In this document: positions 3,982 through 58,000 of the stretch, in pieces | Layout of the letters: each line of letters starts with the position of its first letter | How positions within the stretch are numbered: the stretch's first letter is position 1 | NCBI GenBank assembly: GCA_010093815.1 | Contig: ML996592.1 | Length of the DNA: 58,250 nucleotides | Strand: one strand, 5' to 3' | Source: Pseudovirgaria hyperparasitica | Taxonomy: Eukaryota | Translations under genes and position numbers: made by a program | The notes under the pieces: model-generated | What the model was told of the DNA's origin: nothing | The model's database searches: none | Seen by the model: only the letters and a program-made list of their open reading frames with translations

Positions 3982-5858
3982 CCGAACCGTATACACGGTC
4001 ATGCTCCTAAAACTAGGGAAGAGCCTAAACACGCCGAAGGGATAGAGGCCGATCACCCTTCTCTCCTACCTTAGTAAGGTACTAGAAGCTACGATTACTA
4101 AGAAGATAAGTATAGTAGTATAGGTACACGGCCTTCTTCTAGTAAACCAGAAGGCGAAGGTAGAAAGCTCCCTAATTATAGCTATTTAATATATCCTCGA
4201 GGTTATCTAGACTATATAGAAATAAGGACGAGTCGTCACGCTACTCTCCCTAGATATAGTAGGGGCGTTTAATAAGGTAAACCATATAAGACTTATCCAT
4301 AACCTCCGGATAAGGCGAATACCTAAGTAGATTATATAATTTATATAGTCCTTCCTTGCGTAAAGGACTACTTAAATATATATCCCTAGATACCGAAGTA
4401 AATATAAGGAGACGGTATACGGCATCCCGTAAGGGAGTACTATCTCCCCGATCCTCTTCCTCTTCTTTATAGTAGACCTCCTTTAGAGAATAGAATATAT
4501 AGAGATAGTCGGATACGCGGACGATATATACCTCCTCGCGGTTAATAGTAGTACTAGTAGAATATATACACGACTCGAACGAGACTACGAGAAATGCGTC
4601 TAGTAGGTAAAGCGCTATAGAGTAAAATTCGCACCTAAAAAATACTAGCTTATATACTTTATTAACCGCTATAGAGGATAGGCTACTAGGGAGGGGGTAC
4701 GTCGCCCCTAAATCGACGCCTTTATAGAACTACTAGTATAGAGTATACACGCACTCGGCGTTATAATCGATAATAAGCTAAAATAGGGACCATAGGTGGT
4801 ACACGCCGTCTCTAGAGCCCTCTAGGTAGAAACCGCTATATACTAGATTACGGTATCCACGTAGGGAATAGCCTAGGATAAGGCGAGATAGCTATACGTC
4901 TCCCTAGTACGCCTAGCCTTTATATATGGATACGAGTACTAGTATATAGCCCTTATATAAGCTTGGCGGGTAAAGCTTAAGTCTATATAAAACCGTATAC
5001 TCCGCCTTATCTCCGGTATATATAAAGCTACTAATATAACGCTCCTCCGACGCGAGATAAACGTAATAAGTATATAGAACTTCTACTAGATATAGAGACT
5101 TATATACTTTACTAAATAATAAGTATAAGAACGTGGAGAAGATAGGGTATATACCTTCGCTATACTACGTATATATATCCGCGCGTATTACTAGGCCCTC
5201 CCTACTATAGAATAAACTTAAGTATAATATAAATACTATATAGAGGCGGACTCGAGCTAGACCGCGTAGGAGGTTTAAAATAACCTAGATACCGTCCTAA
5301 GCTAATAGAGCCCTAAGGAGCTTAGCCGCGTTATACGGTTATAGATCTAGAATAAATAGAGGGAGGTACTTAAAGCCTAGTAGGCCTCCTAATAGGATAG
5401 ATATCTAGAATAGATCTAAGGGCCTTAGAAGGAACTAAGTAAATAGATATATAAAGGGCTAACAAAGGCCTAAGTATCTATACTCCTCTAAGCCCGAATA
5501 GGCGCTATAGGTCTTCTATATTACCTCTACTAGAGAGGCGTCCTAGATATATCTCTCTAGTGCGAGGACTACGGCCGGAGAGGTATAATATACCACTACC
5601 TCGCGACGTGCTCTAGCCTCTATACCCTAAGATAAGCCCTTATCTATATAATAAGGACCTCCGATATCACGCGATAGCTTAATAAGTACCCTAAGGATAT
5701 CGCCCGATAGATACTCGTATACCTTCCTCTCCCCTAGTTCTAGTAGACCCGTATATATATACCGGAAGAAGCCCGATATATGCCGGAAGAACCCTAGTAT
5801 ATATTGGAAGAACCCCGGGAGAACCGCGATTATTAGTTAAGGGCAGCCCTTAACTAAT
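3982..5858 (+). pseudogene. LINE ORF2 3' half (reverse transcriptase plus C-terminal CCHC finger), RIP-inactivated
   Basis: RPITLLSYLSK, IP*GS (PQGS), GYADD at 4511-4525, and CEDYGRRGIIYHYLATC finger at ~5561-5611. Confidence 0.92.
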
Positions 5859-5861
5859 AAT
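5829..5861. repeat. Conserved palindrome copy (LINE 3' position), 16-bp arms around a 1-nt centre
   Basis: ATTATTAGTTAAGGGC-A-GCCCTTAACTAATAAT read directly. Confidence 0.97.
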
Positions 5862-7146
5862 ATCCGTACCTATACGTACTACCTAAGGGTAAACCATTAT
5901 AATATAGGCTATAGGCCCATAGGTAGCCCCTAGGGCTATATATATATAAAGAATAAGAGGATAGATAGAGCGTAGTTATGGATATAAGGGAATTTTCCTA
6001 TTCGTAGGTTTCTTCTTATATAGTAGCTTAGACTAGAGGAGGTATGCGTCTATAGAGTGGTACTCTACCTAGTTTACTAATATTATTATTATTATTATTA
6101 TTATAGTAATTTAACGTTTTTTAGTATAGCTTAGTACTAAGAATAGCTATCTAAAAGAAAGAAGGTAAAAGAGATATAGATCTTTAAAATATTCTAAGAA
6201 ATTAAGAAACTTCCTTAGAAAGTTTAAACTTAGAACTTTAAAATTTAACTAAAAAAGAGACTTAGAAAAATAATTCACTAAGAGAAATAGACATTAAAAA
6301 TTAGTACTAATTAGTATAGATTAGTATAGATTACTAAAGAGATTAAAGAAGTTATTATTAAAGAAAGATAAAATTAAGAAAACTAAAAGAAAATATAAAG
6401 ATCTATATAGATCTATATAAATCTATACTAATCTATCTAGAAGAAGTAAGATTACTTTAAAATTAAAATCTAAAACTAAAAATACTAGATAAAAGAGATA
6501 TATTAGTACTAATTAGTATAGATCTAAACTAATTAAGTTAGAGGAGAAGTAGAATAGCTAATTAATACTATAATTATATCTAAGTCTTTCTACTAGTTCT
6601 TATTTAGTATAGTATAGAGCTTTATAATATAGGTCTCTAGTCTTTTATTCTAATACTATAAACTCTATATAGTATACTTTATAGCTATAAACTCCTCTAT
6701 AGAAATCTATAGAGTAGTAGAAACTAGAGTAGAGAAGAATAGACTAGTATAGATATACTAAGAATTATATAAATTAGTAAAAAGATTTAATAATTAGTAT
6801 AGAACTATATACCTTTAGTATAGAAACTTCTAGATTAGAGCTATCTTCTCTAAATTTATAGCTCTTTAGTATATATAAGAAAGAAACCTTAGTCTTTTTA
6901 CTAGAATCTTTTCTAGGAATTTTAATATTATTAGTATATAGAAAAAAGTCTAAAGTAGTAGAGATCTTAGTACTATTATAGAGATTAATATATATTAGTT
7001 AATATCTATAATAATTTAAGAAAAATAATATTATCTAGTAATTATAGTAATTATAGTAGAGGTAGCTTTAGCTAGATTAGCGCGAATCTCTATAGAATTA
7101 TACTTCTAGCTATAAAGTATACTATATTTATATAATTTATAGAAGA

Positions 7147-7216: not shown

Positions 7217-8867
7217 TATTAGTAGTATTTAAATAAGATCTAATACTAATCTATATAGATATAAGTAAATCTATATAAAACCTTTTAAACTTATTTAACT
7301 ACCTATAAATAATAATACTTCTTAGTTATATAAGTACTATAAGTTATAGAATTAGTACTACTATATATATATATAGATAGAAAGTAATAACTATAATAAT
7401 ATATAGCTAGATTATTAGAACCTAGCCTAGGTTAGAGTAGATTAATAGCTTTTATTATATTATTAATATAGATAAGATAGAGATTATTTAAAGGTATCTA
7501 TTTCTATACTAATTACTTCTAAGTATTAAGATTTTAGAAAACTATATTATAATTATTACTAATATATATAGATTCTTATAGATTATTATTATTATTAGCT
7601 ATATATACTATAAAAATTAATAAACTATATAAATTATAGTAAAATATAGTAAATCTATATAAATCTATATCTATAAGAATTAGATAATATATCTAATAAT
7701 CTAAAAAACTCTATAATAAGTTAAAAAGTTTTTTAAAGAAAGGAATATTTCTAAGAAAAGATTTTAATATAGATAGTACCTAGACTTATCTAATTATATT
7801 ACGTAATATACTAGGCCTAATTAGATAATTCTATCTATATAAAAATTTAGAATAGATAAATTCTAGTTTATTAGAAAAATACTTATATAATTCTTAGATT
7901 AGCTAGTATCTATATATATCTAAGATAAAGTATAGTAAATAACTAAGATCTTATAAGACTTAGAATAGAGAATATAGAGATAGATAATAATCTAGATTAC
8001 TAAGGGTAGCTTTCTAAAGAAAGAGAATAATTATTAGAACTTAGTCTTAGATATAACTATATCTATATATATCTTAGCTAACTTAGTTAGAAGATAGCGT
8101 AATATATAGTAAATGGTTATATACTAAATAGATTAGCGTCTCTTTATATATATACTCTTAGATTTCTACTAAAAGGGTTTAGTAGTAATTTATTCTATAA
8201 TAGAATATACTCTATTATTCTATCTAACTATACTACTATCTAATTACTCTATTCTTATAATAACTCTCTTATTTTACTCTCTAATTAAGCGCCCTTAAAA
8301 TAACGTCTATCTAGTACTCTCTAGATTATACTAGACTACTAAAAGTAGCCGTTCGTATCTACTACTACGGTAGTATTCGATTGCAATAGCTATTTAGATA
8401 GGGATTAGACTAAGAAGTCTATAGATAGATAGATAAATAGATAGAAAGTACTAGATGAAAGAAAACTAGCTAGTTAAAGCTAGTAAACTCTTACTAATTA
8501 AAGCTAGTAAAGCTCTAGTTAAAGCTACTAAGTTATTAATAATTAGTAGATTACTAGCCTAGTATTATTATTATTATTACCTTCTATTACTTTATTTAAG
8601 TATACTTATCTTTCTAAAACTTCTTTATACTCTAAGAGACTAAAACTAGTTAATTTAGAGAGATATAGTAATCTATATATATTAATTAATAGAGTATACT
8701 AAGTATGATAACCTCTAATATATATATATATATAGTATAGAGAATATAATAATACTAATATATAGAGATACTATATATATATACTTAAAAACTCTTTAGA
8801 GATATAAGTATAGACTACTACTAGTAAATACTAATATACTAACTCTCTTTTATTAGTTAAGAGTAAC

Positions 8868-9017
8868 TATTAAGATTATTAATAAGTTAAGTTATATTGG
8901 TTATAAAGTATACCATTTTCTATATACGTATCCGGTTGGTTATATTTATATAAACGACCGGTTCGCAACTACCTATATTAATTATATATAGTATATGCTA
9001 CTACTATAGCTATAATA
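8868..9017 (-). repeat. Gypsy-2 3' LTR
   Basis: Near-identical to 23601-23750. TAT...ATA ends are consistent with RIPed TGT...ACA. Confidence 0.95.
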
Positions 9018-9060
9018 AGGTGCCCGAATTTAAGAAAACCTACTACTACCCTTAGTGGCT

Positions 9061-10860
9061 TTACGCGCGACGCTTAGCTAGGCGCGGGTTTATATCTTTA
9101 TAGATACTATAGCGCGGTTAACCTACGGCTAAACTAACGCTAGGGAGTTCCTCGGCGGGCGCGACGTGCTTTATAGTCCTCTTAGGGCGACCTCGTTACT
9201 TAGCTAGTAGCTTAGTAACCTTAACGTCTTTATTATCGTCCTAGTTAACTTACTATACTTTACCGGTAGATAGTACGCTAGTTAGTTTATATAAAGCTAT
9301 TACGGGCTTACCTTATACGCTATTAGAGTCGTTATCTAGAAAAACTAGCTTTACGACCTTTTAGCACGTCTTATAATATAATAGTCCATTTAGTAGTATT
9401 TTAGTAAGGTAAGGTTTATACTACTTGTAACTATAAGTAGCTATAATAGTATCTTTAAGTCTAAAGCTATAATAGTAGTAGACGTCCTAGTAGTATTTAA
9501 CCATTTACTTTAGTCTTAACTCCTTAGTATAAAACTTATATTTAGCGTCGTAGGCACGGTTTAGGTACTTCTATACATGCTTACTAATTTCGTTATTAAA
9601 CGACCTTATAGTATATTTACTATACTTATAAATTAACTTTATAGGCTCGAGGAGGTTAACTACCTCCCCTAGAGGCCCTAGTTACTTAATTAGCTTACCT
9701 ATTTAGTATGAGTAATATCCTAGTTCTCTACGGTTGGCTAGAGGACGAGCTAACTTACTTAGGCTAGGTAGGAGACCTAGGCGGTCGACCGAATTAGGCT
9801 ACTTAGACTTTCGTTAAAATAACTAAGATAATATTTTTAAGGCGGCTAAGGTCGTCTTTATAACTAGGCGGGGCTATACTATAGTAAAATCGCTATTAAT
9901 TTCTTCCTTATCGGATAAGATAACGACTCGTTCCATTGCGAGCTTAGGTTAGATAATATAGGGGTCCCTCTTAATAGTTAGTTTTTTAAAAACTAGACTT
10001 TCTATAACTACTCTATTAAGGCCCTATATCTTTTTAGTAGTACTTACTTTCTATCGAAAGTTCTAGAATAACGTAATATATATATCTAGGTTACTCTTAA
10101 CTTTAAAGGAGTCTTTAGTCGTTAAAATAGTATACTCGAATATAGATCGCTTATATCTATTTTCGACTAAGTTAATACCTTCGTCGCCGATAAGTTTATA
10201 AAGAGTTTTAGCTTACTTAAGGAGTATTACGCGTAGGTTATTTCTAGTAGCTATTAGAACGGACGTTAAAAATTATACCTAGGTAGCTACTATAGTTCTC
10301 TAGTTAACTATATTTACCTTAATAGACGAGGTTACATTATATAGTTATTAGTAGATATTAGTAAGATAGACGTCGGCCTAGGTTAACTAGTCGATGATTC
10401 TTTCGACTATGTTAAGGTTATATATATAGATATCTAATATGGTCGCTTTCTTATTATCCGGCTAATCTTTCTATAGAATCGTAATTAGGTTAAATCTTTA
10501 CGTACTAGTTTCGAAATCGATTACCCGACTTAATTTAGGCGTGAATAGCGATAGGTTACTAACGTTTAGTACTAAGCTACCCGAGTTCATTTACTATCTA
10601 CTTAACTAACCGTACGGCGAGCTAAAGTCCGAATTATCGGTGGTAGTTAGTAATATAAGTAACGTAGTACGTGTATAATCTACTTATCGCGATCGGGCTA
10701 AAATTAGATTATCTACTAGACTTTTTACGGTCGGATATACGGCGCTTATAATCTTTAATAGTCGCTTAGCTAAAATGCTGCTGTCGTTATCTTCGTGCCT
10801 ATATATTAGGTTAATATCTAAGGGTACCGCCTAAGTATAATAGTCGGTTTCATTCGCCAT
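9061..10860 (-). pseudogene. Extra ORF(s) of Gypsy-2 downstream of pol; putative DNA-binding protein (Cys/His-rich region plus AT-hook-like RGRPKR)
   Basis: ATGs at 10860 and 9936 lie in the same phase. The frame from 9936 reads MERVVILSDKEE... to AK*RGRPKR (9178-9195). A Y-x2-Y-x11-Y-x4-Y pattern at ~9478-9540 is compatible with a RIPed C2H2 finger. Confidence 0.55.
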
Positions 10861-11919
10861 AAATAGCTTATCTTTAATTACCTAGGGCTTAGAACGAGTC
10901 TTTTCTAGAATCTACTAATAATATAGCGGTAATATCGCTGCTCCACTAAGTATAAATTAATTAAAGATAATCGCGACCTTATTATTTAAAACGCCGGGAG
11001 CTCCGTGTAGGAGATAACCGTTCTAAAACCATCCTTCTTTTAAGAATACGGCCGGCTATTAGATGCCGACCTTACCCTTCCTTATAATCTATTACTCTAT
11101 TACTATAATAATTAGTAACTTTACTTAGTTAGATAGCTAGACGTTTATAGGCGGCTAAGTTATATAGTCCTCCGTGATATTAATAGAATAATCTATATAA
11201 AATAGCTATAAATCGTATTTTAATAGGTGCTATTATTTAGTCGTAGAGAAATTATCTACTACCGGCCTATCGCTAGAGACCTATATAGGTAGGGCTAATA
11301 ACGAAGGGTATTCTATTACTATATATTCTAGAAGAATTAGTAGGAAAGCTTTTAACAAGCTAGAAAAACTCTTAGAATCTACCTAGTTCGCTATCACGTC
11401 GTATAGAGCTATATAGAATAGTTAGTTAGCTAGGTTAATGTTTACTCGCGTCTAAATCTTTTCTATAGACTACTAGTAGTACTTTTTACCTACCTTTAGA
11501 CGTAGACGTAGGAGGATATTAGTTAGTTTAGATTAAGTATAACTATTACAAGCCTACTAAATCGATATACTAGGTCTAGTAAGAATAAAGCTAGTTATAT
11601 ATAGTAATTAGTTAATATTATAGAATATTTATAGATTAGTAACTATGAATAGTAGGCCGTACGGTTAGCTTAACCGTGGTAGTCGTCTTTAGTTAACGGC
11701 TCTAGGTCCGGTATAGACCTTTAAGTAAATAACGTAAGGAAGTACTTAATAGTTATATATCCGTAGAATACTTAGTAAATATATATATTATAATACCGCT
11801 CGTTATAATAGATATCGACGGCTCTCTATCTATAATAGCTAGGGGCGGATAGATATCGCGACTTTAAGTAGTCGTCGACCTAGCTAGGCTCCTAGTAGAC
11901 TATTTCTATAGGCTTATCT

Positions 11920-13203
11920 AAGGTCGTATTCTTTAACTAAGTCTAATAGGAGTATGCTTCGCTATATCTACTAACCGAATTCTAGACTATCGCTATATAC
12001 TATTACCTAGTATTCGACGGTTAGTTTACGATTACGCCCGATTTAAACATGGCGCCGATTATAGATAGCTATCGCCATCTACTTATTTATAATAGTAAGT
12101 AGGCGCATGTCTTCTCTACGGTCGAAACGGTTAAGATCCTTTAGAAATAGTTCTAACTATTTAATAGATATTACTAGGTGTATTTTCTATGTCTCCGGTA
12201 GCTCTAGTTTATACGCCTAACGGCCTACTACGTATTTAATTAGTACCGGTCCGACTCGTTATTAGCTAAGCTTATAATAAGCGTCTAGAATCTTATACCC
12301 TTTATATAGTTAAATATAGACCTAGTTACTAGGAGCGAGGTCTAGTAGAGACGTATAGCGCCTATTAAAACGCTCCTTCATACGCGTCTAGGCGAATACT
12401 AGCGCGTCTAACGTCTCTTTCTAGTTTATATTATGCTTTCGGGCGTAATTATTCGCTTCTATTAAACTAGTCTCCTTAAATAGAGTGCCTTTAGATAGTC
12501 GGAAGCCGTATACTATCTTATTTAGAGATTTTAATATCGAGACGTTTATTAAATTATTTATAAGCCGCTAGACTAATAGAGCATAGGTTATCTAGCCTAT
12601 GGCTAGCGATATTAAAATAAGAAAACGTAGAGTAATCTCTACCATTTAGTTCGTGCGTTCGCTTTAACCGTTACTCTATTTATAATAAGCGGTCGATACT
12701 AGGATTTTAGTACTAATACCCTCGAAAATTCCTTTCTAAAATGACGATAGGAATTTTCGGTCTCTATCGCAAATAATTACGGCTAGGACTCTCTATTCTA
12801 GTAGTATACTCCTCCTAAACGTAGTTATCTATTACGTGGCGGTCTAGTTATTCCGGCCTAGGACGAGGTAGATTCGCTTAGTAAACTTATCTATTATAGT
12901 AAGTAGCGCGTTAAGCCTATTCTATATTGGTAGTCCGACGATAAAGTCTATTATAACTATATAAAATAGTATTAGCGGTAACTAGACTAGCTTTAATTCG
13001 CTATACGGCGTATATCTTTATATCTAGTAAGTTTTATAGGTAGGATAGTACTAAATATAGTACTTTAGGCGCTTTACGAGCCGATAAATAAAGTAGCCCA
13101 CGCGAATTTAATTATATACTTAGAAAAATCCTATATAAGCGGTTTTATCATGGAATTAAGCGAAGATATCTCTATCGAGCGATTTTAGTATATAGATCTA
13201 ATA
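11920..13203 (-). pseudogene. pol: Gypsy-2 integrase and chromodomain-like C terminus
   Basis: IDFIVGLP (~12928-12952), CDRDRKF (~12752-12772), RVGP...AYKLELPET.KIH.VISI (~12160-12258), and a chromodomain-like segment at ~11925-12060. Confidence 0.88.
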
Positions 13204-13470
13204 ACTAAGTTATCCTACTTATAGTTATAAGAAAAAAAACTTCTTTTACATCCCTAAGAGGCTAACTTGGTCCATTCGGGGTAATATAGCGAGATATACA
13301 CCTTAATCGATAGAGTACACCGAGTATACTAACTACTACTACACGCACGTACGTGTAGCGTCGAAACTAAGACGTTATCGCCGTATAAAGATATATATAT
13401 ACCCTCTTAAAATCCTCACGGAGATAGAGGCACGGACTACACTACTAGAACGCTAATACGCTGACCCCCT

Positions 13471-13503
13471 TTTATTAGTTAAGGGTAGCCCTTAACTAAT
13501 AAA
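13471..13503. repeat. Conserved palindrome copy (LINE 5' position, directly before the ORF1 ATG at 13505)
   Basis: TTTATTAGTTAAGGG-TAG-CCCTTAACTAATAAA. Confidence 0.97.
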
Positions 13504-13504
13504 T

Positions 13505-14920
13505 ATGGCGGCCTTAGGCACCGATATACCCCGGTATATACTAGATATACCCCTACTAGTACGATAGAAAAGGCCATATAGCGATATTACTGAGGGTAAC
13601 TATATACCTATCTAAAACGTAGAATACACCTAAAGGCGCACGCCGTTATAGATAGACGGAATAAAGGGGACCCCGAGAGGGGAAACCCTCCTAGATTATA
13701 TTAACTACTAGGTAGTATATATAGAGAAGGAAGCTAGAGAGGGCTAGAAGACCCTCCTATATATATTCTAGAACCTTATCTAGAATCTAAAGGGAATTAT
13801 AGAGGAGGAGAAGAAGATATAACTAGGAGGACCGGAGGGTAGGCTCGACCGAATAGAGGCTAGCCTATATAGAATCTAGGAGGAACTTACTTAAGGTAAG
13901 CGCCCTAGTATATAGGTATAAATAGTAGTAATACCGGAGGCTATACCACGGGCCCCCCGGACTAGCGATATAGCGTATAGTATATACGTCATAATCTAGG
14001 ATAAGGATACCCTAGTATAGGTCTAGTAAGTATCTCTAAAGGATATAGTAAGTAAGATTAACGAATAAAAGAGAATATAGTTAAATATCGTTATCGCTAA
14101 ACTTACGCTAGGAGGAGTAGTACTTACTATAATAATAAATATCGCGTAGTAGACTATCTCGCGCGATCTAAACGCGATTAGTAGTATCTTTCTAGGCGCC
14201 TCCATTAGGGCGGCCATATACCCGATATAGATATACTCTATACCCGTAAGCGGATAGGTTATCGGAGAAGAGAATATTACGCGGATAGAATAGTTAAATA
14301 AGCGAAAATACCTAGGAATTAAGATTATAAGAGTATAGTAGAAGAATATATAAGGGATTAAAACCAGATCGAAGGTATACTCTACTATAATAGTAGAGCT
14401 TAAGGACCCCGCCCTCGCGTATTAAATTATATAAGAGGGATTCCTAGCGGAAGGGGAGCTTCTTATGGCGGAACTATGGGATAGAGTATAGATAATAATA
14501 TAGTACTTTAACTATTAGAGATACGGGTATACGGCATAGCGGTACTCCTAAAAGACTAGGTGTAGGTGGTATTAATAAGAATATAGTACCTGGGAGTGCC
14601 CCTACGGGATATAAGGAGAGGGCTAGAGGGATAGGGACACGGCGAAGTACTCTAACTACGACGGTAAGTACCCGTCGTAGTTAGCTACGTGCGCGAAACG
14701 TAAATAGATTACCGAATATATCTACTTAATCCGGATAAAGGGAGTAAGATAGCTATAAACGATACGACCTACTACCGTTCCTCTCTTTACTATAATACTA
14801 CTACTATAGACTACCTCCTTACGAGGAAGCGGTTAGGAATAGTAAACCATCCCGAGAAAGCTAATAATAGGACGGCCCTAAGGAATTACTAAGGCCGCCG
14901 CTATATAAGGATAGTCGCGT
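13505..14920 (+). pseudogene. LINE ORF1 (gag-like, three CCHC zinc knuckles)
   Basis: ATGGCGGCC start. RIPed knuckles read CFNCQRYGHTAQRC (~14504-14545), CRWC...H...EC (~14561-14599) and CSNCDGKHPSW.ATC (~14648-14692). The end coordinate is approximate. Confidence 0.85.
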
Positions 14921-14949
14921 CTTAGAGGAACGAATATATAGGTCTATAC

Positions 14950-17900: not shown

Positions 17901-18290
17901 CTAAGTATCCATACTTCTCTAAGCCCGAACAGGCGCTATAGGTCTCCTATATTACCTCTACTAGAGAGGCGTCCTAGATATATCTCTCTAGTACGAGGAC
18001 TACGGCCGGAGAGGTATAATACGCCACTACCTCGCGACGTACTCTAGCCTCTATACCCTAAGATAAGCCCTCGTCCGTATAATAAGGACCTCTAACATTA
18101 CGCGATAGCTTAATAAGTACCCTAAGGACGTTGCCCGATGGATGCTCGTATATCTTCCTCTCCCCTAGTTCTAGTAGACCCGCGTATATATACCGGAAGA
18201 AGCCTAATATATACTAGAAGAACCCTAGTATACGTCGGAAGAACCCTAGAAGAACCGCGATTATTAGTTAAGGGTAGCCCTTAACTAATA
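14950..18290 (+). pseudogene. LINE ORF2 (APE endonuclease, RT, CCHC finger; no RNase H seen)
   Basis: LAI*EL = LAIQEP (~15061), LLGDFNL (~15345-15366), SILDLTL, SDH (~15592-15600), KAPGLD, PQGS (~16858) and YADD (16945-16956). The start coordinate is approximate. Confidence 0.92.
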
Positions 18291-18293
18291 ATC
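18259..18293. repeat. Conserved palindrome copy (LINE 3' position)
   Basis: GATTATTAGTTAAGGG-TAG-CCCTTAACTAATAATC. Confidence 0.97.
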
Positions 18294-40400: not shown

Positions 40401-40491
40401 CTACTATAAGAGGCGGTACTATAAGTATTATAATAAGTAGTTAGAGCTATTTCTATAAACTACTATCGTGCTATATAAAGAGAAATTAAAA

Positions 40492-46100: not shown

Positions 46101-47855
46101 TATATATATAGGGGGCCTATATCTATTTATAGGTGTAGTATTATTCTAAGGTTATCGCGCTTAGTATATAACTATAATAAGAGTAGTATTAACCTATGAA
46201 TATGGAAGAGGACTCGTCTTTCTAGTCCTAGAGAGTATATAGTATGGTATCCGGGGTATATAGTTAGTTTACTCGTCTAGTAGTATTTATAGGGTTCCTA
46301 GATGGCGAGTATTATGGCCCCGGTCTCTTCAAGGAGCGTCGCCTAGTTCTCTCTTTTATATTATATATTTATCTATATAATTTAGAGTATATTCTAGTCC
46401 CTTATTAGGTACTAGGGAGTATATATATCTATATACTTATTCCTTAGAGGCGCGACTATCCTCGCGCGGTAGCGGCTTTAACTATACCTTTTAGTCGTCC
46501 TATCGTCTTCGGGATAGTCTACTATTCTATCTAACTACCTTCCGGAGGGGAGGTTAGGGGTATTATAAAGGAAGGGCTCATGGTAGGTATTATATTCTAT
46601 AACTATCTCGTGCCTCTTGCTTTTATCGTACGAATATATTCTATAACCTATTTACGTTTTATATACGTTAACGACCACGACGGGTGTTTTCTATCGTAGT
46701 TTAAATACTATACTATATCCCTATTTCTTAGTCCGTCTCCTCGCGGTTTATAAGGGCACTTCTAGATAGTATAGTCCCCACGGTACTATCCGCACTTAGT
46801 CTTCTATAAGTACCTTTATATAGTATATCTATACCCTTAATAGTTAAAGCACTATATTATTACCTATACTCTATTCTATGGCTCGGCTATAAGGAGCTCT
46901 CCTTCTATTAGGAATCCCTTCTATATAATATATTATACGAGGGCGGGGTCTCGGAGCTCTATAATTATAGTAGAGTGTTTTTTCGCCGTCGTCTTAATCG
47001 CCTATGGATTCTTCTACCACGCTTTTACGATCTTAATCCCTAGGTATTTTCGCGTGTTAGATTATTCTATACGCGTAATATCCTCCGCTCTAATAGCCTA
47101 TCCCTATACGGGTACTACGCGTACTATAATTAGGTATATAGCTACCCTAATAGACGCGCCGGGGAAGATACTACCTATTACGTTCGGATCTCGCGAGATG
47201 TTTTACTACGTAGTATTCGTTATAGTAGTAAGTACTACTCTACCTAGTATAACTTTAGTAGCCACGACGCTCGACTATATTCCTTTCTATTCGTTAATCT
47301 TATTTATAATTTCCTTTAGAGATGCCCGTTAGACCTATACTAGCGTATCCTTATTCTAGATTATAATACGTATACTATATACTCTATCTATAGTTCTAGT
47401 AGTCCTTAGTGCGGTGGCTCCGGGTATTACTATAATCTAAGCCTACGTATTAGGGCGCTTACCTTAGAATAGCTCTTTCTAGATTCTCCGTAGGCTGGCT
47501 TCTATTCGGTCGAGCCTACTACTAGGTTCCTCTTATAGTAACTTCCTTTCTTCCTCTATAATTCCTCTTAGGTTCCGGATAAGGTCCTAGAATATATAAA
47601 GAAGGGTCTTCTTTCCCTTCTCGGCGTCCCTCTCTACACGTATTACCTAGTATTTAAATTTATCTAGAAGGGTCTCCCCTCTCGGGGTCCCCTCGGTCTA
47701 GATTATCTATAGCGCTTTACACCCTTAGTTAGTTCCTATATTTTAGATAGGTATCTAGCTATCTATATTAATATCGCTATATGGCCGTTTCTACCGTACT
47801 AGTAGGGGTATATCTAGCGTATACCGGGGTATTACGATGCCTAAGGCCGCCATAG

Positions 47856-47886
47856 TTATTAGTTAAGGGTAGCCCTTAACTAATAA
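47856..47886. repeat. Conserved palindrome copy (LINE-C 5' position)
   Basis: TTATTAGTTAAGGG-TAG-CCCTTAACTAATAA, two bases from the ORF1 start. Confidence 0.97.
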
Positions 47887-50132
47887 AAGGGGGTTAGCGT
47901 GTTAGCGTTTATTAGATATAGTCTATACTCATGTTATCGAAGAGTCTTTAAGCGTATATATATAGTATCTCTATACGTCGGTATCGTCGTATATTATATA
48001 CTATACGTACGTACGTGTGTCGGAGGTTATTATACTCGGTATACTCTATTATTTAATGTATGTAAATCGCTGTTTTGCCCCGAATTGACCAGTTTGGTCC
48101 GTTAGGGTGTAAGAAGTTTTTTTTATATAGCTATCTATAGTTTAACTTATTATTATATCTCTACTAGTAGTATTTATATATCTTAAACTCTAGTCTACTA
48201 AGTTTAAGAATACTTTTATTAAGAATAGTTATTTTAGACTTAAGAGGTTTAAATATTCCTATAATATTAATACTCTCTATCTTATTCTATTTTATAAGAT
48301 ACTAATCTTCTAACCTCTTATTTTATTTCTAGATAAGAAATATAATACTATTAAGTATCTTCTATATATCTATAACTAGTTTAGATATATTAGAGATATA
48401 AAAGTAATAGACCTCTAATATCTCTATAGAGTATAGTAGCTAGGTATATTTAGTAAACTATATATAATATCTATTATCTACTTTAAGGGCTCTAATATTA
48501 TCTCTAAAGTTAAATACTTTCTTAAGTCTTACTACTAGATTTATATAGAATATTCTAATTAATATCTTATTTTTTCTAGCTATATTCTAATAATACTTAA
48601 AATAGACTCTATAAGGGATAGCTCTATTAACTATCTATTCTTTCTATTTAACTAGTAGAGCTATATCTTTAACTACTATAAAGTTCTTCTTTAAGAACGC
48701 TACTACTTTAGATATCTTTATTACTAAGGGTATATACTTATAATACTTAGAATCTTCTTCCTTCTTTTCTTCTACTACTATTAGAGTTATCTTAGACTAT
48801 AAGACTCTAGTAACTAATCGCTACTATAAGTATATTTTTAGTAGATATTAAGGGTCTACTAGAAAGATATATCTATAAGTAGACTTTATTAAAGAAGTTA
48901 TAATAGATACTAAAGAAGTCTAAGTATAAGTAGACGGTAAATATATCTCTATAGTAGATAGATAGTATATTTCTAATCTAGAAGGTATACCTTAAGAGAG
49001 TAATTTTACTATAGATATTACTTATACTTACTTTAGTAATAGTAGCTCTAGAGATAGAGATAATATACTTATCTTCTTAATCTATAAGAACTACTCTATA
49101 GATCTATAGACTATTCTACTAACTTAAGAGTACTAGTTAATAGAAATAATAAGTTCTATTCTATTATAGAATATTAATTTATTTTATTAACTAGAGTAGT
49201 CTTAGAGCTATTAAAGAGAGGGTTCTCTTATATTACTATCTCTAGCTATAATAGTATTAATATTAGAACTCTAGAGATATACTTTAATTTCTTATTCTTT
49301 CTATTCTTAACTAATTTAAGACTATAAAGATATATTTAACTAGTCCCTTACTTATATCTATTACTATATTTATAAGAGTACTACCAGCTTTTCTATAAAG
49401 TTCTATATCTACTATAATAGTCTAAGAGTAGATTAGAGTAACTAGCCTTCTATATTAGAGAGGTCTTTTTACTAGTTCTATAGAATTATATTTTTAGTCT
49501 TTAGAATATATAAGTTAGTATCTCTTTCTTAATAAATTATCTTATAGACTTCTTTTAGAATAGAGGATTTAATCTTAACTTTACTATATTCTATTATAGC
49601 TTCTATCTTCTAGAATATATTAACTATACTACTTAAAAGTTATTCTATAAGACTAGTAGTATAATAAAGATTATTAAATATATCTAGAATATAATTATAG
49701 TATTTCTATAGATCTTAAATAGTAAGAATATAGTTAATAGTAGAGGTATTTACTTCTATAATATCTACTAGTAGATCTTAAGAAATAGTAGATAGTCTTA
49801 AGACTATAAGGGTAGTTAAAGGCCCTACTTTAGTACTTATAACCCTTAACTATAATTATATCTATCTTATCTAAACTTATTAATCTTATAATTCTTTATA
49901 AGTAGATATCTTCTTTTTTAGTAGAGCTATTACTATTATTAGTTTCTATAAGAAAATATAGAGATATAAGAGAGAGTTAGTATAGAGAGAGTATTAGAGA
50001 GATTAAGAAGATATAAAGAGAAGAGAGTTCTATACTTCTTATATACCTTATTCTATACTTTATTAAATACTAGGTATATAATAAATTTTATAAATAGACC
50101 TTTATTAATAGCTATATATCTATATATATATT

Positions 50133-52049: not shown

Positions 52050-54990
52050 ATGTTAAGAATAGAGATGTTATATCTTAGTTAAGTATTAGATTAATTATTA
52101 CTAGCTACTTTATAGAATCTACGGCTATATATATAGGACCTTTAGTCTATGGTTCTTACTATTATCTATCTTCTTATTACCTTCTATAATAGGTACCTCT
52201 AATAACTTAAAATAATAGAGTTAAAGTCCTTTACTCTAGTAGACTTACTTTAGTTAGATACTTATATAGATACTATATAATATTACTTTCTAGATATTAG
52301 TTAAAGTATTAATAATATTATTATAATATAGCTCTACGTCTCTCTAGTTCTTATATAAGAATAGCTTCTATTATCTTTAGATTTATAGTAACTATCTAAG
52401 GTCTATTATAAATCTTAAGGAGAGTATCGAATTAGTTATTAGAGTATTTAAATATATAATTTAGTACTATTCTTATTACTCTTATTTCTTTTATATTTAT
52501 TTAATCCATTTATAGTATTAGTATAGCTATAGAGATCTATAACTATTTATATATATTATTATGTTTTCTTAGCTAAGTTAAGTAAGCTATAGTAGTAGTT
52601 ATAGATTTAGCGGATTTAGTAAAAGTAGAAATAGTAGTTCTAGTTAAAGTAGAAACTATGTATATTAGAATAATTATAGTATCTATATTTATAGTAGTAG
52701 TAGTATTTATAATAACGTTAATCTCTATATCCGTTATAATATTAGTTTTAACTATTAGAATAGTAACGGTTTTAGTAGTAGTAGCTTCTTCTATTTAGAA
52801 GTCTTCTATATTATAGAATTTATTCTTCTATTTATTTTATTCTATTAGTTCTTTAAACTAGTCTTCGAACTAGTATTCTAGTATAGAAATTCTAGGAATT
52901 AGTATCTCTATCTAGATATTATTAAGTTTAGAATAGTAACTATAAGTACTAGTAGCTACTACTTTATTAAGAAGTATTCTAAAAGGTATTCTATTAGAAG
53001 CTTTATATAGCTTATCTTCTTTTATAGTAAGTAAGTATTTAAAGCTATCTTAGATATACTACTAGTATCTTCTAATAACTTTATTAATATCTTATACACC
53101 TACTTCTATAGTATACTCTATGGTTTTTATCGCGCTATTTAGATATTATAGATCTATAATTATTTCTATGATTTTTTTTATCTATTCTATAACTCTTAGT
53201 ATTTATCTAATTAAGTCTCTTATAAAATTCTTCTTCTACTCTTAAGCTAACTTTATAGATACTAGTTCCTAAGTTTCTATAATAGCTCTCTATACTAGTA
53301 GTACGGATTCTCTATATAACTCTATCTCTTATTCTTAGAAAAATATAGTACTTAGATTACCTTCTATAGATATAGTAGTTATAACTATTATAGTAATCTT
53401 TTACGTAGCGATTTTTTATACCTCTACTAAGAACCTTTTTAGAGTCTCTATTATAATTTCTCTAATCTATACTTCTATGTCTTTCTTATAGACTAAGATA
53501 AGTATATTTATTTCCGTCTCTTATTAACTAATAGTATTTATAGTTAATATAGCGGGAATTAAGGTAGATAAGATTATAGAAATTAAGGCTAATTATAGCT
53601 CCGTTTACTCTATTAGAGTAGATAGAAGTTTAGATAATATAGAAGCTATCTTAGATACTATTATTTTAGTAGTAACTAATATTATCTTTTTTACTATTTT
53701 AACTTTCTTTATAGTAATAGCTAGTACTAGTTTTATAATAGAGAATAGAACCTTAATTATCTCTATTACCTTTATAACTAGAGTCTATATTTCTTCTAGT
53801 ATCCTTAATTTAATAACGTCTTTAGTTAGATTTATTAGAATATCTAAGATAGATACTCTAGCTTTTAGTTTCTTAGTAATCTCTCTTACTAAAATAATTA
53901 ACTATATCTTATTAGTATTTATAAATTCTTTTATTATAAAAAAGTTATCTACTTTATTAAAACTAGATAGTAGACTTATAATAATAATTTATATAGAGGT
54001 TTTGGGTAGAGTTAAAGTATATCTATTAAGTAAGTATTATAGTAGAAGTCGATTAATTCTTCTACTCTATATAGATCGGTCTTTATAGAAACTATCTTAA
54101 ATAATTATTAGTATAGTTACCTAGTTATTTATAGTACTATAATTTAAAGAATCTATAAACTATAGTATTTTCTTATAGACTATAGTAAATTTCTATATAA
54201 GGTCTTTAAGAGAGACTATAGAGATTAGCTATATATATACTATATCTTCTATATATAGTACGTAGACTTCTTTAACTAGTTTTTCTTCTACTTCTTAACG
54301 CTAGTTAGCTATTATATTCTCTATTAGACTCTATTTTTAAACTAAGTCTTAGAGTATAGTCTTATTTAATAGTATCTATAAGTATACTTTATAGATGTTT
54401 TCTATAATTCTAGTCTTATCTTCTAGGGAACTTAGATAGTAGATTAACTAGAACTAGTATCTAGAAGATTATAGTACTATTATCTAGTTATTATTAAGGC
54501 CTTTAAGGCGTTATATAATATACTAGAATCTTATATACTAATAGAAGATATATTATTAGTATTTATATATAATAAGCGTCGGTTCTTAATTATAGTATAA
54601 TTACTATATAATTAAGTCTAGCGGTCTAATTACCTATTCTTAGATAATATTCTTTTATAGCTAAGCTATAATAGTAACCTAAACTAATCTATCTCTTCTT
54701 TACTATACGGTATAGTAATAAATATTCTTACTATTTAAATCTTATAGCTAAGTTACTAGTATATTCTATATATAACTATAGTAGCTTCTAATTTTCTCTA
54801 TAATATCCGTAGTAAAGTATCGAGTTAGAATCTATATATATTCTACTTAAGCTATCTTCTTTATAAAGTATCTATTATCTAGTTTTAAGACGTATATAAT
54901 AATACTACTCTTAGACGCTTACTCTATCTTAAATCTCGTGCCTTTTAGAAGTATAATAGTAAAGTTCTATTTCTTATCTATAGATATTAT
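52050..54990 (-). pseudogene. Long RIPed ORF of unknown function (charged helical and Thr/Ser-rich segments) upstream of the integrase
   Basis: One apparent frame of ~1000 codons whose stops are TAA/TAG, as expected from RIP. No RT or RNase H motif was recognised. Confidence 0.45.
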
Positions 54991-55002
54991 AGATACTAGT
55001 AG

Positions 55003-58000
55003 AAAAAACTTCTTACACCCCAACGGACCAAACTAGTCAATTCGGGGCAAAACAGCGATTTATATACATTAAACGATAGAGTATACTAAGTATAACAATC
55101 TCCGACATACGTACGTACGTACAGCGTATAATACACGACGATACTAACGTATAGAGATACTATATATATATACTCAAAGACTCTTTAATAACACGAGTAT
55201 AGACTATATCTAATAAACGCCGATACGCCGACCCCCTTTTATTAGTTAAGGGCTACCCTTAACTAATAACTATAGCGGCCTTAGGCATTATAATACCCCG
55301 GTATACGCCGGATATACCTCTACTAGTACGGTAGAAACGGCTATATAGCGATATTAATATAGATAGCTAAATACCTATCTAAAATATAGGAACTAACTAA
55401 GGGTACGAAGTACTATAGATAACCTAGACTAAGGGGACCCTAAGAGGGGAGACCCTCCTAGATAAAATTAAATACTAGGTAATATATATAGAGAGGGACG
55501 CCAAGGAGAGAAAGAAGACCCTCCTTTATATATTCCGGGACCTTATCTAGAATCTAAGAGGAATCACGGAGGAAGAAAGAAAGTCACCACGAGAGGAACC
55601 TAGTAGTAGGCTCGACTAAATAGAAGCCAGCCTATAGAGAATCTAGAAAGAGCTATCCTAAGGTAAGCGCCCTAATATGTAGACTTAGATTATAGTAACA
55701 CCCGGAGCTACCGTACTAAGGACCACTAGAACCATAGATAGAGTATATAGTATATATATCGTAATCTAGGATAAGGATACGCTAGCGTAGGTCTAATAGG
55801 CATCTCTAAAGGAAATTATAAATAAGATTAATAAATAGAAAGGAATATAGTTAAGCGTTATAGCTACTAAAGTTACGCTAGGTAGGGTAGTACTTACTAC
55901 TATAATAAATACTATATAGTAAAATATCTTGCGAGATCCGAATATAATAGGTAGTATCTTCCCTAGCGCGTCTATTAGAGTAGCTATATACCCGATTATA
56001 GTATACGTAGTACCCGTATAGGGATAGGCTATCGGAGTAGAGGATATTACGCGTATAGAATAATCTAATACACGAAAATACCCAGGGATTAAGATTATAA
56101 AAGCGTGGTAGAAGAACCTATAGACGATTAAGACAACGGTAAAAAAACACTCTACTATAATTATAGAGCTCTAAGACCCCGCCCTCGTATAATATATTAT
56201 ATAGAAGGGATTCCTAATAGAAGGAGAGCTCCTTATAGCCGAGCTATAGAATAGGGTATAGGTAATAATATAGTACTTTAACTATTAAGGGTATGGATAT
56301 ACTATATAAAGGTACTTATAGAAGACTAAGTGCGGATAGTACCGTAGGGACCACGCTATCTAGGAGTACCCTTATAAACCGCGAGAAGATAGACTAAGAA
56401 ATAGAGATATAGTATAGTATTTAAACTATAACGGGAAACACCCGTCGTAGTCGTTAACGTGCATAAAATATAAATAGGTTATAGAATATATTCATACGAT
56501 AAAAGCGAGAGACGCGAGATAGTTATAGAATATAATACCTACCACGAGCCCTTTCTTTATAACACCCCTAACCTCCCCTCTAGAAGGTAGTTAGATAGGA
56601 TAGTAGATTATCCCGAAGACGATGGGACGACTAAAAGGTATAGTTAAAGCCGCTGCCGCGTAAGGATAGTCGCGCCTCCAAGGAATAAGTATATAGGTAT
56701 ATATACTCCCTAGTACCTAATAAGGGACTAGAATATACTCCGAATTATATAGGTAAATATATAATATAAAAGAGAGAACTAGGCGACGCTCCTCGAAGAG
56801 ACCGGGGCTATAATACTCGCTATCTAGGAACCCTATAAACACTACTAGACGAGTAAACCAACCATACACCCCGGATACTATACTATACACCCTCTAGGAC
56901 TAGAAAGACGAGTCCTCTTCCACATTCATAGGTTAATACTACTCTTATTATAGTCGTATACCGAGCGCGATAACCTTAGGATAATACTATACCTATAAAT
57001 AGATATAGGCCCCCTATATATATATAACATATATAACTAATAACGTGTACTTATACTAGACGAGATGCTCGAGGGTACTACGGAACCAGGGTAACATATC
57101 CTCCTAGAAGACTTTAACCTCTACTACTAATAGTAGGGAGGCCTAGCCGTGGTTAGGGAAGAACTTAGAGTAAGGGAACTACGTACCCGCTACTATAACT
57201 TCCTATACCTACTTATATCTATAGAATAAGTTATATAGAAAAAACATAAATAGGACGAAGACGGGTCTACGCTTAACCTTACCTTCGCTACGGAGTATAT
57301 TAGTTACCGGATCTAATACTACCGCCTAGGCTAGATATAGACGGATTCCGACTATAAATATATGGAAACTATAATAAACGTATATACCCCGAATGAATAA
57401 CGGGGACGATAGATATAGAAGGATACCGACTAGGAAAAGTACCTAAAGGACCTGGAATCGGCGATCCTAGATCCCTCTATAGTCGATATATCTAATAACC
57501 TAGCCATAGACTAGGCCGTATAGACACTCCTATAAATATACTAGAATGCGAGAAATAAACACGTACTATACTAAATATACCGGCCCCTAGAAGCAAAGGG
57601 GATTCCTTAAGTACGGGAAAGTAGATAAGACGCCCGAAGGCTATATAGACGCGTATACTATACGAGAACACCCGAGTCGTGGGAAGAATAGAAGGAAGCG
57701 ATATAATAACGCGATAAAGTCCTCTATAATGAAAGGCGTAAATAGTAGTGTATAATTACTAGTTAATAGATACGATACGTAATAGGGCTATAGCGCATGG
57801 CGAAATAGGCTAAGGGCGTAGATACTCCGACACCCCCGCCACTTATGCCTCCCCTAATATATTAGGGGAGAATATACTCCACGAGCCTTAAGAAAACTAA
57901 GGCCCTATGGGAGGCCATGTTCCCTCTCCCGGAACTAGTAGACCTATTAGACGTTTACGACGCCGAATATCTATATATAGTAGATATCCCCGAAGAAGTT

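What the first reader, a model, noticed from the sequence alone, without database searches (positions are those of the whole stretch)
5829..55269. A 31-33-bp palindrome is shared by unrelated transposon classes and brackets their coding regions
Seen: TTATTAGTTAAGGGC(A/T)GCCCTTAACTAATAA occurs 10 times (5829, split 8849/23751, 13471, 18259, 24161, 29208, 41682, 43079, 47856, 55239). Every LINE end visible in the window has it, 1-2 nt before the ORF1 start and again at the ORF2 end. The arms are essentially invariant across three LINE subfamilies whose flanks have diverged. It also sits at the end of the dioxygenase-like ORF of an LTR element with no LINE sequence around it. Inference: reversing CpA/TpG RIP gives TATCAGTCAAGGGCAGCCCTTGACTGATA, which reads ISQGQPLTD, QSRAALD* or SVKGCP*. 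LINEs are not expected to carry identical hairpins at both ends. This looks like a cis site selected across TE classes, such as a dimeric protein binding site (chromatin boundary or anti-silencing recruitment), an RNA hairpin, or an ultra-short mobile unit.
Basis: partly seen in the sequence, partly recalled or inferred. Interest (0 to 1): 0.9.

Follow-up and report, generated by a model that had tools for sequence, protein, structure and literature searches.

The report
Conserved hairpin pair inside a fungal LINE
A 31-base perfect palindrome sits twice inside every copy of one decayed jumping gene (a LINE), just before its first gene and shortly after its second, and it has stayed unchanged while the surrounding non-coding DNA drifted, so it is probably a working signal of that element and not a motif shared among different transposon types.

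Summary
The palindrome is real: 9 full copies plus 1 split copy, where none is expected by chance. Nine of the ten belong to one 5.3-kb non-LTR retrotransposon family with endonuclease, reverse transcriptase, 13-16-bp target duplications and an (ATT)n tail. Six RIP-mutated copies are nested among LTR elements.

The palindromes are internal, not terminal. One ends 2 nt before the ORF1 ATG, 277 nt from the 5' end. The other lies about 95 nt after the probable ORF2 stop, 243 nt from the 3' end. All 9 of 9 such junctions in the window carry it.

Three subfamilies differ by 7-10% transversions. The 62 palindrome columns show one non-RIP change, at the loop centre, against about 17% of columns in the 5' UTR. 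The arms also lack any RIP target dinucleotide, so part of the invariance is trivial.

The tenth copy (41683) has no LINE-like flanks. It lies in unclassifiable RIP-degraded DNA with no dioxygenase or LTR signal.

Best reading: a selected, duplicated cis-hairpin (-15.8 kcal/mol) of this LINE, probably a recognition site for its own proteins. The mechanism is inferred. "Shared by unrelated transposon classes" and the de-RIPped sequence are not supported.

The parts
5830..5860 (+). Palindrome, 3' junction copy of LINE A (centre CAG intact)
   Evidence: 0 mismatches; model positions 5055-5085
8850..8867 (+). Left part of the split palindrome (5' junction copy of LINE G), including the GTAAC target duplication at 8863-8867
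23751..23768 (+). Right part of the split palindrome (second GTAAC copy at 23751-23755, then the right arm)
13472..13502 (+). Palindrome, 5' junction copy of LINE B; the ORF1 ATG follows after a 2-nt spacer
18261..18291 (+). Palindrome, 3' junction copy of LINE B
24161..24191 (-). Palindrome, 3' junction copy of LINE C (element on the - strand)
29208..29238 (-). Palindrome, 5' junction copy of LINE C
41683..41713 (.). Orphan palindrome: flanks unlike any of the four LINE contexts; 427 nt downstream of the last LINE G homology (41256)
43079..43109 (-). Palindrome, 3' junction copy of LINE E (centre intact)
47856..47886 (-). Palindrome, 5' junction copy of LINE E (centre base T in the element's sense)
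55239..55269 (+). Palindrome, 5' junction copy of LINE F (centre base T)
3976..6098 (+). LINE A, 5'-truncated copy (model 3199-5325), ends in (TAT)8
13191..18540 (+). LINE B, full length with its 13-bp target duplication (about 13191-13203 and 18528-18540), nested in an LTR element
23914..29486 (-). LINE C, full length, 14-bp target duplication, carries a solo LTR at about 25641-25857; inserted into LINE G
8616..41256 (+). LINE G in four pieces (8616-8867, 23751-23919, 29488-32647, 40732-41256). It is broken by an LTR element, by LINE C and by a gypsy-type LTR element (32648-40737). Homology ends at model position 4310.
42838..48163 (-). LINE E, full length, 16-bp target duplication
54954..58250 (+). 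LINE F, 5' part, runs off the window
5755..5815 (+). Three 21-nt tandem repeats between the probable ORF2 stop and the 3' palindrome (the same array is present in B, C and E)

Best explanation
The palindrome is a conserved internal cis-element of one non-LTR retrotransposon (LINE) family.

Shown:
- Each element carries two identical copies.
- One copy forms the last 31 nt of the 277-nt 5' UTR and ends 2 nt before the ORF1 ATG.
- The other opens the 3' UTR, after a short 21-nt repeat array and 243 nt before the (ATT)n tail.
- Both copies stayed sequence-identical in three subfamilies while the UTRs around them changed.
- The only non-RIP change is the central loop base.

Inferred:
- In the element's RNA (or first-strand cDNA) each copy folds into a 13-14-bp hairpin with a 3-nt loop.
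- That hairpin is read sequence-specifically by the element's own machinery: the zinc-knuckle ORF1 protein and/or the ORF2 reverse transcriptase. This would resemble the way stringent-type LINEs recognise a 3' UTR stem-loop.
- Because the sequence is self-complementary, the two copies can also pair with each other. That would join the two borders of the coding region, or two RNAs.
- The uniformity of the arms in the decayed copies is helped by the fact that they contain no RIP target dinucleotide.
For: One LINE family:
- RVT_1 E=1.5e-18; Exo_endo_phos_2 E=1.2e-4.
- Intact ORF2 relatives P0001 and P0002 carry PF00078, PF14529 and PF03372.
- Target duplications of 13, 14 and 16 bp and an (ATT)n tail.
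- nhmmer places the palindrome at model positions 278-308 and 5055-5085 in every copy that covers them, 9 of 9.

Conservation:
- Between subfamilies, transversion divergence is 6.6-9.9%.
- Non-RIP variable columns: 17.2% in the 5' UTR, 18.4% in coding sequence and 13.8% in the 3' UTR, against 1 of 31 and 0 of 31 in the two palindromes.
- 0 of 202 5' UTR windows and 30 of 212 3' UTR windows have <=1 such column.
- By total variation the palindrome windows rank 13th and 119th of 5258.

Folding:
- -15.8 kcal/mol; 0 of 200 shuffles fold as well.
- The inter-copy duplex is -44.2 kcal/mol, or -49.3 with the E/F centre pair, against -31.6 for two hairpins.

Other runs of the same species label (X3, X4, kind not on record):
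- They hold long contigs of a C-rich, un-RIPped relative.
- One contig ends at 13501 and another begins at about 13473. Both break at the 5' palindrome.
- Contigs crossing the 3' palindrome differ from copy B at 5 of 74 letters.

Precedents: LINE ORF2 proteins bind a cognate 3' stem-loop (PMC4176376, abstract read). TRE5-A has a 5' UTR module duplicated into its 3' UTR (PMC3159450, passages read).
Against: - No covariation is available. The stems never vary, so RNA structure is not demonstrated over DNA-level recognition.
- No Rfam family matches the element at E<=1.
- The 3' copy lies 243 nt from the tail. The known recognition stem-loops are described as part of the 3' tail.
- For TRE5-A the authors state that the 3' duplication seems irrelevant for retrotransposition. 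A duplicated UTR module therefore need not be functional.
- Part of the invariance is trivial. The arms have no CpA, TpG or CpG, and longer fully invariant runs (28, 25 and 19 nt) exist elsewhere in the element.
- Only three independent lineages are available. The significance estimate (about 1e-4 by columns, about 4e-3 from pairwise transversion rates) is my own rough calculation.
- No conserved upstream ORF ends in the 5' copy.
- The orphan copy at 41683 is not explained.
Confidence: 0.4

Rival explanations
1. Neutral relic. The two copies are a fossil duplication with no present function. One origin would be an unusually long target-site duplication, made when an ancestral coding core inserted into a palindromic site of another element that then supplied the present UTRs. 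Another would be a template-switch duplication like the TRE5-A B-module. Their uniformity would reflect RIP immunity plus a short time since divergence.
For: - The arms have no RIP substrate, and other invariant runs of 19-28 nt exist.
- The 21-nt tandem repeats directly upstream of the 3' copy look like a former LINE 3' terminus.
- The TRE5-A duplication is reported as apparently dispensable.
Against: - Non-RIP substitutions hit 14-17% of UTR columns but only 1 of 62 palindrome columns across three subfamilies.
- Both copies remain perfect palindromes in all lineages.
- This family's target duplications are 13-16 bp, not >=31 bp.
Confidence: 0.22
2. Translation control at the RNA level. The 5' hairpin, with stops in all three frames and an A at -3, insulates and sets the ORF1 start by blocking read-through from upstream and tuning initiation. 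The 3' copy would be a by-product.
For: - Constant 2-nt spacing to the ATG in 5 of 5 copies.
- The 5' UTR is essentially free of ATG.
- Stops occur in all frames on both strands (read directly from the sequence).
Against: - No conserved upstream ORF terminates in it.
- All-frame stops are expected in about 1 in 6 AT-rich 31-mers (my estimate).
- It does not explain equal conservation of the 3' copy, which lies about 95 nt past the probable stop.
Confidence: 0.12
3. DNA-level site for a dimeric host or element protein (promoter or boundary element, or recombination site).
For: - Perfect dyad symmetry with a tolerated central base.
- Sequence, not just pairing, is conserved.
- An LTR element integrated exactly at the dyad centre of one copy, which hints at unusual DNA structure.
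Against:
- The position relative to the ORFs fits an RNA role at least as well.
- No copy shows inversion or deletion between the two sites.
- The copies in the window are dead, RIPped DNA, so their state says nothing about chromatin function.
Confidence: 0.1
4. An ultra-short mobile or independently acquired palindromic unit that entered the LINE twice and also occurs elsewhere. This would be a nuclear analogue of bacterial REP elements or yeast mitochondrial GC clusters.
For: One of ten copies (41683) has flanks unlike any LINE context. In all 8 flank-versus-context tests, 21 or more of 200 shuffles scored at least as well. In both positive controls, 0 of 200 did.
Against: - Nine of ten copies are at two fixed positions of one element.
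- The orphan has no clear target duplication (read).
- There are no extra half-sites beyond chance.
- The orphan lies right after a truncated LINE in the same orientation, in a nest where insertions replace flanks.
- The motif was absent from the prokaryote and viral collections.
- The 5 metagenome loci that match a looser pattern are unrelated.
Confidence: 0.07

Closest known systems
Dictyostelium TRE5-A (structure AB-ORF1/ORF2-BC; PMC3159450, passages read)
   Same: A non-LTR retrotransposon in which a segment of the 5' UTR at the ORF1 start is duplicated into the 3' UTR, so that one sequence brackets the coding region.
   Different: The TRE5-A B-module is 290 bp, contains the ORF1 start and is not described as a palindrome. 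Its authors consider the 3' copy probably dispensable. Here the duplicated unit is a 31-nt perfect palindrome that stops 2 nt before the ATG and is conserved in both places. No sequence relationship was tested.
3' UTR stem-loops of stringent-type LINEs (zebrafish ZfL2, eel UnaL2, insect R2, TRE5-A C-module; PMC4176376 abstract read, PMC3159450 passages read)
   Same: A short stem-loop in the LINE RNA, with a simple-repeat tail at the 3' end. In those elements ORF2 protein recognises the stem and the loop of its own RNA.
   Different: Those stem-loops are described as part of the 3' tail and occur once. Here the hairpin is 243 nt from the tail and has an identical twin at the 5' UTR/ORF1 border. 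Binding is untested.
Retroviral dimer-initiation palindromes and viral 5'-3' cyclisation sequences (recalled from general knowledge, not from a call)
   Same: Self-complementary RNA motifs that let two RNAs, or the two ends of one RNA, pair. Zinc-knuckle chaperone proteins can convert hairpins to extended duplexes.
   Different: No LINE is known to me to use this. Here only the thermodynamic possibility is shown.
Mobile short palindromes (bacterial REP/BIME, yeast mitochondrial GC clusters; recalled)
   Same: A palindrome of about 30 nt repeated in a genome.
   Different: Those are scattered through unrelated intergenic contexts. Here 9 of 10 copies occupy two fixed positions of one element.

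Membership tests
Non-LTR retrotransposon (APE-type LINE) | Reverse transcriptase domain | tested here: met
   RVT_1 E=1.5e-18, 67.7 bits (cut-off 29.6), in copy B read with X at stops
Non-LTR retrotransposon (APE-type LINE) | Apurinic-type endonuclease upstream of the RT | tested here: met
   Exo_endo_phos_2 E=1.2e-4, 22.4 bits. This is below the curated 27.4 in the RIP-damaged copy. Intact relatives P0001 and P0002 carry PF14529 and PF03372.
Non-LTR retrotransposon (APE-type LINE) | Variable target-site duplications, 3' simple-repeat tail, 5' truncation, no LTR or TIR | tested here: met
   Duplications of 13, 14 and 16 bp for B, C and E; (ATT/TAT)n tail; copy A is 5'-truncated
Named LINE clade (Tad1, I, others) | Clade-specific domains (such as RNase H) and RT phylogeny | not tested
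   No RNase H hit in copy B, nor in the precomputed Pfam domains of P0001 or P0002. No tree was built, so the clade is left open.
Stringent-type LINE 3' recognition stem-loop | Stem-loop in the 3' UTR | tested here: met
   13-14-bp stem, -15.8 kcal/mol, 0 of 200 shuffles as stable
Stringent-type LINE 3' recognition stem-loop | Forms part of the 3' tail next to the terminal repeats | tested here: not met
   243 nt separate the palindrome from the (ATT)n tail
Stringent-type LINE 3' recognition stem-loop | Bound by cognate ORF2 protein and required for retrotransposition | not testable with these tools
   Needs binding and retrotransposition assays
TRE5-A-like duplicated UTR module | The same sequence at the 5' UTR/ORF1 border and in the 3' UTR | tested here: met
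   Model positions 278-308 and 5055-5085
TRE5-A-like duplicated UTR module | Long (290 bp) module containing the ORF1 start | tested here: not met
   Only 31 nt are shared. The flanks of the two copies do not align.
Transposon terminal hairpin or terminal inverted repeat | Lies at the element's ends, next to the target duplication | tested here: not met
   Target duplications lie 277 nt and 243 nt beyond the palindromes
Mobile short palindrome (REP / GC-cluster-like) | Copies in many unrelated contexts, with empty sites or target duplications | tested here: inconclusive
   1 of 10 copies is outside a LINE context and it has no clear duplication. No whole genome is held.

The most novel reading that the evidence does not exclude
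The twin palindromes are a pairing signal. With help from the zinc-knuckle ORF1 chaperone, the 5' and 3' copies form a 31-bp duplex. That duplex would either circularise the LINE RNA, so that only full-length transcripts are packaged and copied, or dimerise two RNAs. This would be a retrovirus-like or flavivirus-like strategy not described for LINEs. In the E/F subfamily the single tolerated change (centre A to U in the 5' copy) makes that duplex perfect. The orphan copy could then be a recombination or template-switch product at this site.
Probability: 0.1. Interest if true: 0.7.

Novelty: new variant of a known kind. Interest (0 to 1): 0.4.

Why it matters
How LINE proteins pick their own RNA, and how full-length copies are favoured, is known for only a few animal and protist elements and hardly at all for fungal ones. 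This family offers a short, sharply defined, sequence-conserved hairpin present at both borders of its coding region. That is an easy target for binding, structure-probing and marked-element experiments.

The result also carries a caution for reading RIP-degraded genomes. Motifs without CpA, TpG or CpG stay constant for trivial reasons, so conservation has to be judged on non-RIP changes.

It corrects the idea that the motif links different transposon classes.

Tried and rejected
- Whole genome: none is held, so no genome-wide census of contexts was possible.
- Earlier findings: three look-ups found nothing.
- Metagenome scan with a RIP-degenerate 25-mer: 5 loci. None has RT homology (tblastn gave no hit). 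blastn matched only the palindrome itself in L001, and L003-L005 share one unrelated flank. This used the only metagenome scan, so the contigs encoding P0001 and P0002 could not be fetched.
- Prokaryote-genome and viral-contig scans for the exact arms: 0 and 0.
- Rfam at E<=1 on copy B: no match.
- Sequencing runs: no RNA holder listed. The kind of X3 and X4 is not on record, so I draw no conclusion on expression.
- Summed contig depth is highest in the two bins that hold the palindromes. The tool states that depth is no copy number, so I do not use it.
- No joint from the 5' to the 3' palindrome was listed. Contigs break at the palindrome, so deletion derivatives could not be tested.
- Only 40 of 334 "other letter" rows were shown, and none lies in the palindromes. 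Genome-wide variants of the motif remain unseen.
- Flanks of the 41683 copy: plain and --max nhmmer, tblastn, a RIP-collapsed alignment test, Pfam at E<=5 and low-stringency blastn gave nothing specific. The roughly 60% matches occur in both orientations all over the window and are compositional.
- Pfam on 48164-54954: nothing.
- A first MAFFT alignment with fragments was unusable and was replaced by hmmalign.
- A 13-bp hairpin at 14652-14684 in copy B is not kept in copy E and lies in the ORF1 zinc-knuckle region, so it was dropped.
- A head-to-head sharing of the 29208 palindrome by two LINEs, my early idea, was rejected. It belongs to copy C only, and the adjacent forward LINE sequence is the continuation of G.
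- Literature: the motif strings occur in 6 papers, all unrelated judging by the search listing. Two keyword searches found no description of such a palindrome pair in a fungal LINE.

Full report
**Observation.** The 31-nt sequence TTATTAGTTAAGGGC(A/T)GCCCTTAACTAATAA occurs 9 times with up to 2 mismatches. None of 100 dinucleotide-preserving shuffles gave any match. All mismatches lie in the central five bases. A tenth copy is split: 8850-8867 and 23756-23768. It is interrupted by a 14.9-kb insertion with 150-nt terminal direct repeats and a 5-bp GTAAC duplication taken from the exact dyad centre. A half-site search found 20 arm matches in these ten palindromes and only 2 single matches elsewhere, with 3.8 expected by chance.

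**What the surrounding DNA is.** The window is a nest of RIP-degraded retroelements with GC of 20-41%.

- Self-comparison and a profile built from three full copies define one 5.3-kb family with six copies:
  - A: 3976-6098, +, 5'-truncated.
  - B: about 13204-18527, +.
  - C: 29486-23914, -, with a solo LTR inside.
  - E: 48163-42838, -.
  - F: 54954 to the window end, +.
  - G: four pieces (8616-8867, 23751-23919, 29488-32647, 40732-41256), broken by an LTR element, by C and by a gypsy-type element.
- Copy B, read with X at stops, has RVT_1 (E=1.5e-18) and an endonuclease domain (E=1.2e-4, below the curated cut-off in this damaged copy).
- Its ORF1 shows RIP-damaged CCHC-like motifs (read).
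- Intact ORF2 relatives at 37% and 27% identity carry the endonuclease and RT families.
- B, C and E have target duplications of 13, 14 and 16 bp. The element ends in (ATT)n or (TAT)n.
- It is therefore an ordinary APE-type LINE. I did not determine its clade.

**Where the palindrome sits.** It is not at the ends.

- In every copy that covers the positions it lies at model 278-308 and 5055-5085. That is 5 of 5 5' junctions and 4 of 4 3' junctions.
- The 5' copy is the last 31 nt of the 5' UTR. A 2-nt spacer and the ORF1 ATG follow.
- The 3' copy follows three 21-nt tandem repeats. It starts about 95 nt after a triple stop (PLP*F**) present in all four copies that cover it.
- Lengths of the intact relatives fit an ORF2 end anywhere from that stop to the palindrome.
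- If the triple stop were a RIP artefact, which I estimate at about 5% from the rates, the frame would end at the TAG in the left arm.
- My early idea that two head-to-head LINEs share the 29208 copy was wrong. The forward sequence beside it is the continuation of G, into which C inserted.

**Is the conservation meaningful?** RIP has acted strongly.

- In C and G, 98-99% of detectable CpA sites and 94% of CpG sites are mutated. In A, B, E and F the figures are 54-64% and 30-41%.
- The arms contain no CpA, TpG or CpG, so RIP cannot change them. Fully invariant runs of 28, 25 and 19 nt occur elsewhere. Raw invariance is therefore weak evidence.
- The copies form three subfamilies (A/B, E/F, C/G) that differ by 6.6-9.9% transversions, which RIP does not make.
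- Columns with transversions or gaps: 17.2% of the 5' UTR, 18.4% of coding sequence and 13.8% of the 3' UTR, against 1 of 31 and 0 of 31 in the palindromes.
- No 31-column window of the 5' UTR (0 of 202) and 30 of 212 in the 3' UTR have <=1 such column.
- From these rates I estimate a chance probability of roughly 1e-4 by columns, or 4e-3 from pairwise transversion rates. This is my own rough calculation.
- The one change is the central base of the 5' copy in E/F (A to T).
- Both copies were therefore kept by selection while the family was active. The sequence itself was kept, not merely base pairing, because no compensatory changes are seen.

**The de-RIPped reading.** Only 54-64% of detectable CpA sites are mutated in A, B, E and F. 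The central CpA itself is intact at 5830 and 43079. Uniform conversion is therefore very unlikely, below 1e-3 if sites are independent. Contigs of another run of the same species label cross the 3' palindrome with only 5 differences in 74 letters. The RIPped centre and the flank sites of copy B can account for about that number. The peptide readings built on the de-RIPped sequence have no support.

**The 41683 copy.**

- LINE G homology stops at 41256 by nhmmer and at 41169 by tblastn.
- The 426 nt before the palindrome and the 427 nt after it were compared in both orientations with all four LINE contexts, in an alphabet that ignores RIP transitions.
- All 8 comparisons were within the shuffle range: 21-198 of 200 shuffles scored at least as well. 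Two positive controls exceeded all 200 shuffles.
- Pfam finds nothing in six frames at E<=5. It also finds nothing in the 6.8 kb that continues this sequence beyond LINE E.
- So this copy is a true orphan in unclassifiable DNA. There is no evidence that it belongs to an LTR element or ends a dioxygenase-like ORF.
- It may be LINE debris whose flanks were replaced in this insertion nest. It may be a recombination product at the palindrome, or an independent copy. The window cannot decide.

**Outside data.**

- No genome is held.
- In two DNA runs of the organism, 14425 of 592746 and 5572 of 180325 assembled contigs lie on copy B at >=80% likeness. The family is therefore highly repeated there. 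One of these runs may be the source of the window.
- Two runs of another study (kind not on record) hold only 14 and 4 matching records. They include contigs of 4052 and 4383 nt whose unaligned parts are C-rich versions of the RIPped UTR.
- One 319-nt contig ends at 13501. From its aligned record positions, it starts close to the element's 5' end. The 4383-nt contig starts at about 13473. Both break at the palindrome, as expected for a k-mer assembly if the same 31-mer occurs twice in that element (inference).
- Scans of metagenome, prokaryote and viral collections gave nothing related. Rfam gave nothing.

**Mechanism.**

- As RNA the motif folds into a 13-14-bp hairpin with a 3-nt loop: -15.8 kcal/mol, and 0 of 200 shuffles fold as well.
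- Being self-complementary, the two copies can pair with each other. That duplex is -44.2 kcal/mol, or -49.3 with the E/F centre pair, against -31.6 for two hairpins. This holds for any repeated palindrome and is not evidence of use.
- The 5' UTR has no conserved upstream ORF ending in the motif, so a termination-reinitiation role lacks support.
- The best-supported reading is a sequence-specific recognition hairpin for the element's own proteins, duplicated at both borders of the coding region.
- Steps shown: position, duplication, selection and folding capacity. Steps inferred: the RNA level, the binding partner and any 5'-3' pairing.

**Comparison with known systems.**

- The nearest architectural precedent is Dictyostelium TRE5-A. 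Its 290-bp B-module at the ORF1 start is duplicated into the 3' UTR, and the authors consider the duplication probably dispensable (PMC3159450, passages read).
- The nearest functional precedent is the 3' stem-loop that ORF2 proteins of stringent-type LINEs bind (PMC4176376, abstract read). Here the hairpin is 243 nt from the tail and has a twin.
- Searches for the motif strings and for fungal LINE hairpins found no description of this pair.

**Verdict.** The cross-class and de-RIP interpretations are not supported. What remains is a new variant of a known kind: a LINE with a selected, duplicated palindromic UTR element. It is of moderate interest.

Noticed in passing
window 8863-8871 and 23746-23755: An LTR-type element (150-nt terminal repeats; an integrase-like match on the - strand at 12625-13017) integrated exactly at the dyad centre of a palindrome. 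Its 5-bp duplication GTAAC is the central five bases. This may be chance, or a preference of the integrase for symmetric or hairpin-prone DNA.
   Followed up: partly
window 5755-5815 (and the same place in copies B, C, E): Three copies of a 21-nt tandem repeat (unit ATATATACCGGAAGAACCCG) lie between the probable ORF2 stop and the 3' palindrome. They resemble a LINE terminal repeat array stranded inside the present 3' UTR.
   Followed up: partly
window 13191-13203 / 18528-18540; about 29487-29500 and 23900-23913 (flanks of C, positions derived, not verified); 48164-48179 / 42822-42837: All three recoverable LINE target duplications begin TATAG (TATAGATCTAATA, TATAGTACTTTATA, TATAGATAGCTATATA). 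This suggests a preferred nick site, or microhomology with the (ATT)n tail.
   Followed up: no
whole window, LINE copies: There are two RIP intensity classes. C and G have 98-99% of detectable CpA sites mutated and 94% of CpG sites. A, B, E and F have 54-64% and 30-41%. Of 500 ancestral CpG positions in the alignment, 496 are mutated in at least one copy and 4 are invariant, so CpG sites are hit about as thoroughly as CpA. The pairs A/B and E/F differ almost only by transitions (0.1-0.2% transversions against 8-9% transitions). That fits copies of one master mutated separately.
   Followed up: partly
window 25641-25857, 32648-32894, 40491-40737: A 247-nt LTR family occurs as a solo LTR inside LINE C and as both LTRs of a gypsy-type element (RT and RNase H on the - strand) inserted in LINE G. 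A related gypsy pol (RT, RNase H, integrase SH3) fills 3-3977 on the + strand.
   Followed up: partly
runs X3 and X4 laid on window 13191-18534: Runs of the same species label from another study hold long contigs (4052 and 4383 nt) of a C-rich, apparently un-RIPped relative of this LINE, and almost none of the thousands of RIPped fragments seen in X1 and X2. The kind of these runs is not on record.
   Followed up: partly
window 41257-42837 and 48164-54953: About 8.4 kb of extremely AT-rich DNA (GC 20-25%), split by LINE E, has no Pfam domain in any frame and no specific repeat in the window. It holds the orphan palindrome, and its nature is unknown.
   Followed up: partly
L002-L005 (metagenome loci): A similar palindrome, TCAGTCAAGGGTTACCCTTGACTGA, recurs with identical flanks in three of these unrelated metagenome contigs (L003-L005). 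In L003 it lies inside a 740-codon open frame. There is no relation to the LINE.
   Followed up: no
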